From assembly GCF_051903065.1 (NCBI RefSeq), contig NZ_CP178438.1: DNA of 64,000 bases. The stretch is one strand, 5' to 3'. How positions within the stretch are numbered: the first letter of the stretch is position 1; every line of letters begins with the position of its first letter. Source of the stretch: Escherichia coli (GTDB taxonomy: Bacteria; Pseudomonadota; Gammaproteobacteria; Enterobacterales; Enterobacteriaceae). Positions 2,527-5,500 of the stretch are shown here, one piece after another. Position numbers: made by a program.

Positions 2527-5500
2527 TGGTACGCGAGCTGGGTTTAGAACGTCGTGAGACAGTTCGGTCCCTATCTGCCGTGGGCGCTGGAGAACTGAGG
2601 GGGGCTGCTCCTAGTACGAGAGGACCGGAGTGGACGCATCACTGGTGTTCGGGTTGTCATGCCAATGGCACTGCCCGGTAGCTAAATGCGGAAGAGATAA
2701 GTGCTGAAAGCATCTAAGCACGAAACTTGCCCCGAGATGAGTTCTCCCTGAGACTTAAAGTCTCCTGAAGGAACGTTGAAGACGACGACGTTGATAGGCC
2801 GGGTGTGTAAGCGCAGCGATGCGTTGAGCTAACCGGTACTAATGAACCGTGAGGCTTAACCTTACAACGCCGAAGCTGTTTTGGCGGATTGAGAGAAGAT
2901 TTTCAGCCTGATACAGATTAAATCAGAACGCAGAAGCGGTCTGATAAAACAGAATTTGCCTGGCGGCCGTAGCGCGGTGGTCCCACCTGACCCCATGCCG
3001 AACTCAGAAGTGAAACGCCGTAGCGCCGATGGTAGTGTGGGGTCTCCCCATGCGAGAGTAGGGAACTGCCAGGCATCAAATTAAGCAGAAGGCCCGGTCG
3101 GAAGACTGGGCCTTTTTGCGTTTCTACAAACTCTCCCTGTCGTCATAACTACAAGCCATCCCCCCACAGATACGGTAAACTAGCCTCGTTTTTGCATCAG
3201 GAAAGCAGCTATGAACCACTCCTTAAAACCCTGGAACACATTTGGCATTGATCATAATGCTCAGCACATTGTATGTGCCGAAGACGAACAACAACTACTC
3301 AATGCCTGGCAGCATGCAACCGCAGAAGGGCAACCCGTTCTTATTCTGGGTGAAGGAAGTAATGTACTTTTTCTGGAAGACTATCGCGGCACGGTGATCA
3401 TCAACCGGATCAAAGGTATCGAAATTCATGATGAACCTGATGCGTGGTATTTACATGTAGGAGCCGGAGAAAACTGGCATCGCCTGGTAAAATACACTTT
3501 GCAGGAAGGTATGCCTGGTCTGGAAAATCTGGCATTAATTCCTGGTTGTGTCGGCTCATCACCTATCCAGAATATTGGTGCTTATGGCGTAGAATTACAG
3601 CGAGTTTGCGCTTATGTTGATTGTGTTGAACTGGCGACAGGCAAGCAAGTGCGCTTAACTGCCAAAGAGTGCCGTTTTGGCTATCGCGACAGTATTTTTA
3701 AACATGAATACCAGGACCGCTTCGCCATTGTAGCCGTAGGTCTGCGTCTACCAAAAGAGTGGCAACCTGTACTAACGTATGGTGACTTAACTCGTCTGGA
3801 TCCTACAACAGTAACGCCACAGCAAGTATTTGATGCGGTGTGTCATATGCGCACCACCAAACTCCCTGACCCAAAAGTGAATGGCAATGCCGGTAGTTTC
3901 TTCAAAAACCCTGTTGTATCTGCCGAAACGGCTAAAGCATTACTGTCACAATTTCCAACAGCACCAAATTACCCCCAGGCGGATGGTTCAGTAAAACTGG
4001 CAGCAGGTTGGCTTATCGATCAGTGCCAGCTAAAAGGGATGCAAATGGGTGGGGCTGCGGTGCACCGTCAACAGGCGTTAGTTCTCATTAATGAAGACAA
4101 TGCAAAAAGCGAAGATGTGGTGCAACTGGCACACCATGTAAGACAAAAAGTGGGTGAAAAATTTAATGTCTGGCTTGAGCCTGAAGTCCGCTTTATTGGT
4201 GCATCAGGTGAAGTGAGCGCAGTGGAGACAATTTCATGAAGGATAACACCGTGCCACTGAAATTAATCGCGCTGTTAGCGAACGGTGAATTTCACTCAGG
4301 TGAGCAGTTGGGTGAAACGTTAGGAATGAGCCGGGCGGCTATTAATAAACACATTCAGACACTGCGTGACTGGGGCGTTGATGTCTTTACCGTTCCGGGT
4401 AAAGGATACAGCCTGCCTGAGCCTATCCAGTTACTTAATGCTAAACAGATATTGGGTCAGCTGGATGGCGGTAGTGTAGCCGTGCTGCCAGTTATTGACT
4501 CCACGAATCAGTACCTTCTTGATCGTATCGGAGAGCTTAAATCGGGCGATGCCTGCGTTGCAGAATACCAGCAGGCTGGCCGTGGTCGCCGGGGTCGGAA
4601 ATGGTTTTCGCCTTTTGGCGCAAACTTATATTTGTCGATGTTCTGGCGTCTGGAACAAGGCCCGGCGGCGGCGATTGGTTTAAGTCTGGTTATCGGTATC
4701 GTGATGGCGGAAGTATTACGCAAGCTGGGAGCAGATAAAGTTCGTGTCAAATGGCCTAATGACCTCTATCTGCAGGATCGCAAGCTGGCAGGCATTCTTG
4801 TGGAGCTGACTGGCAAAACCGGCGATGCGGCGCAAATAGTCATTGGAGCCGGGATCAACATGGCAATGCGTCGTGTTGAAGAGAGTGTCGTTAATCAGGG
4901 GTGGATCACGCTGCAGGAAGCGGGGATCAATCTCGATCGTAATACGTTGGCGGCCATGCTAATACGTGAATTACGCGCGGCGCTGGAACTCTTCGAACAA
5001 GAAGGATTGGCACCTTATCTTTCGCGCTGGGAAAAGCTGGATAATTTTATTAATCGCCCAGTGAAACTTATCATTGGTGATAAAGAAATATTTGGCATTT
5101 CACGCGGAATAGACAAACAAGGCGCTTTATTGCTTGAGCAGGACGGAATAATAAAACCCTGGATGGGCGGTGAAATATCCCTGCGTAGTGCAGAAAAATA
5201 AGAAAGGGGAGCATTAGCTCCCCTGCAAATTATTTACGTAGTCTGACCTCTTCTACCGCATGATTAGCACTTTTCGTCAGGATTAAACTGGCGCGCTCAC
5301 GAGTAGGTAGAATATTTTGCTTTAAGTTCAGCCAGTTGATCTCTTTCCACAATGTCATGGCAGTCTTAATAGCTTCTTCTTTAGTTAATTTCGCGTAGTT
5401 ATGAAAATAGGAATCCGGGTCTGTAAAAGCCCCTTCGCGGAATTTCAGAAAACGGTTGATATACCATGTCTGAAGTAAGTCTTCCGGAGCATCAACATAT

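What the first reader, a model, noticed from the sequence alone, without database searches (positions are those of the whole stretch)
3077..3130. Single compact terminator after rrfB instead of the tandem T1-T2 arrangement I recall for K-12 rrnB
The 5S gene is followed directly by caaattaagcagaaggcccggtcggaagactgggcctttttgcgtttctac. The flanks resemble the K-12 rrnB T2 context, while the stem (ggcccggtc...gactgggcc) resembles the T1 stem. The roughly 170 bp that separate T1 and T2 in the K-12/vector rrnB T1T2 cassette, including a partial 5S remnant, appear absent. This looks like a chimeric single terminator that could arise by recombination or gene conversion between rrn 3' ends. The rrnE terminator at 44305-44335 has a T2-type stem.
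Basis: partly seen in the sequence, partly recalled or inferred. Interest (0 to 1): 0.3.

Follow-up and report, generated by a model that had tools for sequence, protein, structure and literature searches.

The report
Ordinary single terminator ending rrnB
The rRNA operon rrnB in this E. coli strain ends in one ordinary hairpin terminator because it lacks the ~166-bp small-RNA insert (rrB) that gives lab strain K-12 its T1-T2 pair; this is a common natural allele, not a new structure.

Summary
After the 5S gene (2957-3076) there is one hairpin terminator (core 3091-3112, U-tract 3113-3125), and murB starts at 3211. K-12 carries 166 more bases here: T1, a spacer and an 18-nt copy of the 5S 3' end. 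Those bases are a described element, the tRNA-linked repeat rrB, which encodes the sRNA RrB (Stenum et al. 2021). The window is therefore an rrB-less rrnB.

This is not unusual:
- K-12-type tandem ends sit next to murB in only 2513 of 5426 complete E. coli genomes.
- The exact 51-nt terminator occurs in 393 genomes, including O157:H7, always once per genome.
- Closely related single terminators are found in ST131, Nissle, ATCC 25922 and ST648.
- E. whittamii also has a single terminator with a T1-like core; E. albertii has the same kind next to murB, but its contig is cut.
- 41 of 44 other Enterobacteriaceae loci lack the repeat.

A simple T1-T2 deletion is excluded, because the left flank is T2-type (18/18 against 13/18). 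Flank and core types do occur in all four combinations, so exchange between rrn 3' ends is real but old. Compensatory changes support the hairpin, and the core is predicted to be more stable than T1 or T2.

Verdict: real, ordinary, low interest.

The parts
2957..3076 (+). rrfB, 5S rRNA gene (120 nt); last stable-RNA gene of rrnB
   Evidence: Rfam 5S_rRNA hit 2959-3074, 92.8 bits. Ends placed by alignment to K-12 rrfB and by the 18-mer position.
3064..3081 (+). AACTGCCAGGCATCAAAT: the 5S 3'-end segment that is duplicated at the distal end of the rrB repeat in K-12. Here it is present once, i.e. an unoccupied site.
   Evidence: Only one copy at this operon end. K-12 has two copies about 150 bp apart (PMC8144298 Fig. 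1 legend).
3082..3090 (+). A-rich left flank (TAAGCAGAA). It pairs with the U-tract in the extended stem and is identical to the left flank of K-12 T2.
3091..3112 (+). Core terminator hairpin: 9-bp stem GGCCCGGTC/GACTGGGCC (8 Watson-Crick pairs plus one G.U) with a GGAA tetraloop (3100-3103)
   Evidence: Predicted dG -18.1 kcal/mol, against -15.8 for T1 and -14.7 for T2. On 15 related terminators 99.5% of cells are paired and 4 pairs change on both sides.
3085..3119 (+). Extended hairpin, in which the A-tract pairs with the U-tract and there is one bulged U
   Evidence: MFE structure, -26.1 kcal/mol, z = -4.3.
3113..3125 (+). U-tract TTTTTGCGTTTCT, identical to the tail of K-12 rrnB T2; predicted site of transcript release
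   Evidence: Release site is inferred, not measured.
3126..3210 (+). Locus-specific spacer up to murB. It contains ATACGGTAAACTA (3170-3182), a motif largely conserved, with substitutions in some genera, upstream of murB across Enterobacteriaceae; a possible murB promoter -10 region.
   Evidence: The promoter role is inference; the consensus scan found no promoter.
3211..4239 (+). murB (342 aa), same orientation, the first gene downstream of the terminator
   Evidence: Translation; RefSeq annotation of identical matches.

Best explanation
This is the Rho-independent terminator of an rrnB operon that does not carry the rrB tRNA-linked repeat.

Proposed mechanism (inferred from sequence):
- RNA polymerase transcribes past 5S.
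- The nascent RNA forms a 9-bp GC-rich hairpin with a GGAA loop (3091-3112).
- The hairpin is followed at once by UUUUUGCGUUUCU, where the transcript is released.
- This ends the 9S/5S precursor and shields murB-birA from rrn transcription.

The terminator sits at the position homologous to K-12 T2, with the same left and right flanks. Its hairpin core belongs to the sequence family that includes K-12 T1.

K-12 and about 46% of complete E. coli genomes carry an extra T1 + rrB + 18-nt 5S-end repeat in front of this position. The window shows the repeat-free state, which is probably the older one. No rrB copy can be made from this operon, and no rrA copy in the closest genome, though rrF at rrnD is kept there.

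Shown: the sequence anatomy, population frequency, outgroup states and covariation. Inferred: termination itself, its efficiency, and which state is ancestral.
For: - Anatomy and fold.
- Missing 166 bp relative to K-12.
- Identity of the missing piece as the TLR rrB, with two terminators in only three K-12 operons: PMC8144298. Confirmed on K-12 sequence: rrnA, rrnB and rrnD are tandem, rrnG and rrnE single.
- Frequency: the K-12-type tandem next to murB is in 2513 of 5426 genomes. The rest are 166-168 bp shorter, including ST131, Nissle, APEC O1 and O157:H7.
- Exact window allele: 382 genomes at >=99% over 186 nt; 393 genomes for the 51-nt terminator, one place each.
- Sampled single alleles.
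- Outgroups: E. whittamii, Escherichia sp. E1V33 and E. coli E69 are single. E. albertii has GGCCCGGTC-GAAA-GACCGGGCC next to murB.
- Other genera: 41 of 44 Enterobacteriaceae loci have no second 5S remnant. Near-identical terminators are in Kosakonia oryzendophytica and Citrobacter amalonaticus.
- Compensatory series at stem position 6: G-C in albertii, G.U in the window, A-U in ST131/ST648.
- The T2 tail it shares is part of a terminator reported as 100% efficient (Orosz 1991, as cited in PMC8144298).
Against: - No transcript 3'-end or termination measurement exists for this allele.
- The simple terminator scan did not flag it. The same scan also misses K-12 T2, a known terminator, on the + strand, so this is a limit of the scan.
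- Polarity is not proven. The E. albertii contig starts inside the left flank, so a repeat upstream cannot be excluded there.
- Draft assemblies tend to break at repeat-bearing ends, which biases the 41/44 count towards single ends.
- Repeat-bearing ends next to murB do exist in Kluyvera and Enterobacter.
Confidence: 0.85

Rival explanations
1. One reading: a chimeric terminator made by gene conversion or recombination that put a T1-type stem into the T2 context.
For: The flanks equal T2 and the core is T1-like. Left-flank type and core type occur in all four combinations among alleles at this locus, which implies exchange or recurrent mutation. K-12 rrnA and rrnB are identical from T1 (apart from one base in its loop) through the T2 T-run and diverge right after it, the signature of conversion tracts ending in the terminator.
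Against: No donor exists in the same genome: the 51-mer is unique per genome, and rrnD T1 of the closest genome differs at 2 of 9 positions in the 5' arm. The same architecture is in E. whittamii, Kosakonia and Citrobacter, and E. albertii has the same terminator type next to murB on a cut contig. Any such event would therefore predate E. coli diversification and would not be peculiar to this strain.
Confidence: 0.12
2. Recent deletion of T1 + rrB from a K-12-like tandem end, either between the two 18-nt 5S-end repeats or between the two hairpins.
For: Such products seem to exist. NCTC10537 equals K-12 minus exactly one 168-bp repeat unit, leaving a single T2.
Against: Recombination between the 18-nt repeats yields a T2 core, not the window's core. 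A deletion between the hairpins would keep the T1 left flank, which matches the window at only 13/18 against 18/18 for T2.
Confidence: 0.02
3. Assembly artefact: collapse of a repeat at the end of an rRNA operon.
For: rrn ends are repeat-rich and often misassembled.
Against: The identical sequence is in 393 independently finished genomes, and similar single ends are in about 2900.
Confidence: 0.01

Closest known systems
E. coli K-12 rrnB T2 terminator
   Same: Same chromosomal position relative to murB. Identical 18-nt left flank, identical U-tract and downstream spacer, and the same A-tract/U-tract extended pairing.
   Different: The hairpin core is CGGTCGGAAGACTG (14 nt) instead of ATCCTGACGGAT (12 nt). 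It follows the real 5S gene, not the 18-nt 5S remnant at the end of rrB.
E. coli K-12 T1 terminators of rrnA, rrnB and rrnD
   Same: Same hairpin family: 9-bp stem, G(G/A)AA loop and an identical 3' arm GACTGGGCC. It follows the 5S gene directly.
   Different: Two or three substitutions in the stem-loop (two in the 5' arm; versus rrnB T1 also one in the loop). Different flanks: T1 has AAAACGAAAGG...CCTTTCGTTTTAT. It is not followed by rrB and a second terminator. The core is predicted to be more stable, -18.1 against -15.8 kcal/mol.
rrB / RrB sRNA, a tRNA-linked repeat (Rudd 1999; Stenum et al. 2021, PMC8144298)
   Same: It occupies exactly the segment that distinguishes K-12 from the window.
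   Different: Absent here. It is also absent from rrnA of the closest genome, but a copy (rrF) remains at rrnD.
Single-terminator rrn ends (K-12 rrnG, rrnE; rrnB of O157:H7, ST131, ATCC 25922, E. whittamii)
   Same: One hairpin directly after the last stable-RNA gene. The O157:H7 rrnB terminator is identical to the window's.
   Different: Other lineages differ by a few, often compensatory, substitutions in stem and flank.

Membership tests
Intrinsic (Rho-independent) terminator | GC-rich hairpin of about 5-14 bp with a short loop | tested here: met
   9-bp stem with 7 G-C pairs, GGAA loop, -18.1 kcal/mol.
Intrinsic (Rho-independent) terminator | U-rich tract immediately 3' of the stem | tested here: met
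   TTTTTGCGTTTCT starts at the base after the stem and is identical to the K-12 T2 tail.
Intrinsic (Rho-independent) terminator | Structure maintained in evolution | tested here: met
   99.5% of cells paired. 4 pairs change on both sides, against 1.2 expected from shuffles. Slid controls give 24-64% paired.
Intrinsic (Rho-independent) terminator | Measured transcript release at the U-tract | not testable with these tools
   No transcript data are available for this allele.
K-12-type dual terminator with rrB tRNA-linked repeat (T1-rrB-T2) | Second copy of the 18-19-nt 3' end of the upstream 5S gene | tested here: not met
   AACTGCCAGGCATCAAAT occurs once at this end, allowing up to 2 mismatches.
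K-12-type dual terminator with rrB tRNA-linked repeat (T1-rrB-T2) | About 150-nt repeat body between two terminators | tested here: not met
   166-bp gap in the alignment to K-12. The rrB core is absent from the whole window.
rrnB operon (by chromosomal position) | murB-birA-coaA immediately downstream, thrU-tyrU-glyT-thrT further on | tested here: met
   murB at 3211-4239; tRNA genes at 6542-6983; annotations of identical hits.
rrnB operon (by chromosomal position) | btuB-murI upstream and tRNA-Glu in the 16S-23S spacer | tested here: met
   Seen in the closest complete genome, NZ_CP083585.1. The window itself starts inside the 23S gene.

The most novel reading that the evidence does not exclude
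The RrA/B/F sRNA genes (tRNA-linked repeats at rrn ends) are a presence/absence polymorphism in E. coli rather than a fixed feature.

- rrB is missing from rrnB in about 54% of complete genomes.
- Copy number of the repeat ranges from 0 to several.
- About 27% of genomes have no copy at all.

Meanwhile the terminator left at the empty site evolves by compensatory changes and by exchange of hairpin cores between rrn ends. Such strains would be natural knock-outs for testing the still unclear function of these CsrA/Hfq-binding sRNAs. I found no paper in the searchable library that reports this. That library lacks most subscription journals.
Probability: 0.4. Interest if true: 0.25.

Novelty: already known. 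Interest (0 to 1): 0.12.

Why it matters
It matters little for biology at large.

- It is a reminder that the textbook and vector rrnB T1T2 cassette is a K-12-lineage allele that contains an sRNA gene, not the universal end of rrnB.
- Strains such as this one and O157:H7 end rrnB with one strong hairpin.
- For annotation, a short 5S-murB spacer should not be flagged as a deletion.
- For people studying RrA/B/F, the frequent natural absence of these genes limits how essential their role can be and offers natural comparison strains.

Tried and rejected
- **Simple consensus terminator scan.** It found nothing at 2800-3400. The control on K-12 shows it also misses T2 on the + strand, because the stem is extended into the U-tract. 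I rejected it as evidence against a terminator.
- **Rfam.** No family covers rrB or these terminators. Only weak chance hits appeared (Twister-P5 E = 0.18, BSnc120 E = 0.086), so Rfam gives no help.
- **Literature searches for strain-level variation of rrn terminators.** They returned nothing specific. One search found the rrB paper.
- **Deletion model between T1 and T2.** Rejected on flank identity (18/18 against 13/18).
- **Recent in-genome gene conversion.** Rejected because the terminator is unique per genome and differs from the resident rrnD T1.
- **E. albertii as an outgroup for single versus tandem.** Inconclusive, because the contig begins inside the left flank.
- **Exact shares of single T1-like and single T2 alleles.** Not counted exactly. 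Roughly 43% and 12% are estimated from evenly spaced rows.

Full report
**What is there**

The window opens inside a 23S gene. A 5S gene follows (Rfam 2959-3074; 2957-3076 by alignment to K-12 rrfB), and murB starts at 3211. Between them lie 134 nt.

- It folds into a 9-bp GC-rich stem, GGCCCGGTC/GACTGGGCC, with a GGAA loop (3091-3112).
- The stem is followed directly by TTTTTGCGTTTCT.
- An upstream A-rich stretch can pair with the U-tract, lengthening the helix to 3085-3119.
- Folding energy is -26.1 kcal/mol, z = -4.3, and none of 200 shuffles folds as well.

The operon is rrnB by position. murB, birA and coaA follow, and then thrU-tyrU-glyT-thrT. In the closest complete genome the order is btuB-murI-16S-tRNA-Glu-23S-5S-murB.

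**Comparison with K-12**

K-12 MG1655 has 300 nt between rrfB and murB. The pairwise alignment shows one 166-bp gap in the window. The missing part is the 3' half of T1, the spacer, the second copy of AACTGCCAGGCATCAAAT and the 5' half of T2.

| Feature | Window compared with K-12 |
|---|---|
| Left flank CAAATTAAGCAGAAGGCC | 18/18 with T2, 13/18 with T1 |
| Right flank | identical to T2 |
| Hairpin core | differs from rrnA/rrnD T1 at two positions of the 5' arm |

That includes the T2-type stem at rrnE, 44307-44326.

**What the missing piece is**

In K-12, rrnA, rrnB and rrnD end in T1-spacer-T2. rrnG and rrnE have one terminator. Stenum et al. 2021 (PMC8144298) describe the spacer as a tRNA-linked repeat.

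- The copies are named rrA, rrB and rrF.
- The hallmark is an 18-19-nt copy of the 3' end of the upstream RNA gene.
- The repeat is transcribed by read-through of T1 and processed to sRNAs that bind Hfq and CsrA.
- The paper quotes Orosz et al. 1991 for termination of 87% at T1 and 100% at T2.

The window has one copy of the 18-mer at each rrn end and no rrB core anywhere. It is therefore an rrnB without rrB. Its terminator stands where T2 stands in K-12.

**How common it is**

- With the K-12 end as query, only 2513 of 5426 complete E. coli genomes cover it fully next to murB. The others span 233-235 bp instead of 401. They include ST131, Nissle 1917, APEC O1 and O157:H7.
- The window allele is at >=99% identity over 186 nt in 382 genomes.
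- The 51-nt terminator is exact in 393 genomes, always once per genome. Many of these are O157:H7.
- Evenly spaced rows suggest roughly 46% tandem, 43% single with a T1-like core and 12% single T2.
- The rrB-type spacer occurs in 3974 genomes at 1-10 copies (median 2) and is absent from 1452.
- In the closest genome (ECNB21-M121), rrnA has a single T2, rrnB has the window allele, and rrnD keeps T1-rrF-T2.

**Allele series and selection on the hairpin**

Sampled rrnB ends differ as follows.

| Strain or species | Stem |
|---|---|
| ST648, ST131 | GGCCCAGTC...GACTGGGCC |
| Seattle 1946 (ATCC 25922) | AGAGCCCAGTC...GACTGGGCCTTT |
| O2:H6 | ...GGGCTTTT |
| BH100 | ...GGGCTCTT |
| NCTC10537, 23AR0998 | single T2 |
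| E. albertii | GGCCCGGTC-GAAA-GACCGGGCC |
| E. whittamii | GGCTCAGTC-GAAA-GACTGAGCC |

At the sixth stem pair the series is G-C (albertii), G.U (window, O157:H7) and A-U (most others). The base of the stem shows a similar series.

On 15 such terminators 99.5% of cells pair, and four pairs change on both sides against 1.2 expected. Slid registers pair at only 24-64%. The core hairpin is predicted at -18.1 kcal/mol, against -15.8 for T1 and -14.7 for T2.

**Outgroups**

MurB-anchored loci from one genome per GTDB species show that the 5S-murB linkage is conserved across Enterobacteriaceae.

- Of 44 loci where the 5S end is visible, 41 have no second 5S remnant.
- Three have a repeat-like end: Kluyvera genomosp. 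3, Enterobacter sp. CC120223-11 and Raoultella ornithinolytica.
- First hairpins are T2-like in 28 loci, T1-like in 7 and other in 9.
- Kosakonia oryzendophytica and Citrobacter amalonaticus ku-bf3 carry GGCCCAGTCGGAAGACTGGGCCTTTTTGCGTT, nearly the E. coli single terminator.

Two caveats apply. Draft contigs tend to break at shared repeats, which undercounts tandem ends. The E. albertii contig begins inside the left flank.

**Origin**

- Recombination between the two 18-nt repeats would give the NCTC10537 type: K-12 minus exactly 168 bp, with a T2 core.
- A deletion between the hairpins would keep the T1 left flank.
- Neither route gives the window allele.

The simplest reading is that the repeat-free end with a T1-like core is old at rrnB. 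It is seen in E. whittamii, in ST131, Nissle, ATCC 25922, ST648 and O157:H7, and in distant genera; E. albertii has the same terminator type next to murB on a cut contig. On this reading, part of E. coli gained T1-rrB-T2 at rrnB from a sister operon. K-12 rrnA and rrnB are identical from T1 (apart from one base in its loop) through the T2 T-run and diverge immediately after it.

Exchange among rrn ends is supported by the presence of all four combinations of left flank (AGCAGAAGG or AGCGAAAGG) and core (T1-like or T2-like). It is not recent here, because the terminator is unique in its genome and differs from the resident rrnD T1.

**Mechanism**

I infer a standard intrinsic terminator. The hairpin forms in the nascent RNA, and the transcript is released in the U-tract at about 3117-3125. 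From established knowledge:

- rrn antitermination complexes suppress Rho-dependent stops but not intrinsic ones.
- The hairpin 3' of 5S is part of the 9S precursor recognised by RNase E.

Both statements rest on general knowledge and were not tested here. The terminator shares the T2 tail and A-tract and has a stronger core. I therefore expect efficiency at least comparable to T2, but this has not been measured.

**Verdict**

The feature is an ordinary, widespread allele of a well-understood element, so interest is low. A modest by-product is that the RrA/B/F sRNA genes are frequently absent in natural E. coli.

Noticed in passing
window 44293-45800 (approx.): The 3' flank of rrnE differs from K-12. 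Here it is a T2-type terminator, a partial REP/BIME unit (GCCGGATGCGACGCTGG), then an IS1397 (IS3-family) insertion starting about 44366, then yjaB and metA. K-12's own rrnE terminator and yjaA are absent. O157:H7 has the same flank without the IS. Only 3 of 5426 genomes share the IS-bearing version.
   Followed up: partly
L095 14720-14940 (NZ_CP083585.1, rrnA end): In the closest complete genome the rrnA 3' end is base-for-base the same as the window's rrnE 3' end. It has a single T2, the same REP fragment and IS1397 at the same point. This means either two independent insertions into homologous palindromic units or conversion between the two operon ends.
   Followed up: partly
window 3170-3182: ATACGGTAAACTA lies about 30-40 nt upstream of the murB start codon. 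It is largely conserved, with substitutions in some genera, across the Enterobacteriaceae genera retrieved, while the rest of the spacer varies. It may be a murB promoter -10 region. The consensus promoter scan did not flag it.
   Followed up: no
E. coli genome collection: The rrB-type tRNA-linked repeat varies from 0 to 10 copies per genome (median 2). 1452 of 5426 complete genomes have no match at all. 68 of the matching places are on plasmids.
   Followed up: partly
window 2977 and 44193: Both 5S genes in the window read GGCGGCCGTAGCG, where K-12 rrfB reads GGCGGCAGTAGCG. This is a single-base 5S variant.
   Followed up: no
L001 (K-12) 540-575; window 3085-3125: The tool's simple terminator scan misses T2-type terminators on the + strand, because it extends the stem into the U-tract through A-tract pairing. 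At rrnE it reports the site only on the - strand.
   Followed up: yes
window 12084-12145, 21481-21641, 27334-27434, 50601-50678: Other Rfam hits above gathering score are P26, sroH, a TPP riboswitch and naRNA4 (REP-derived). These are expected features of this E. coli region.
   Followed up: no
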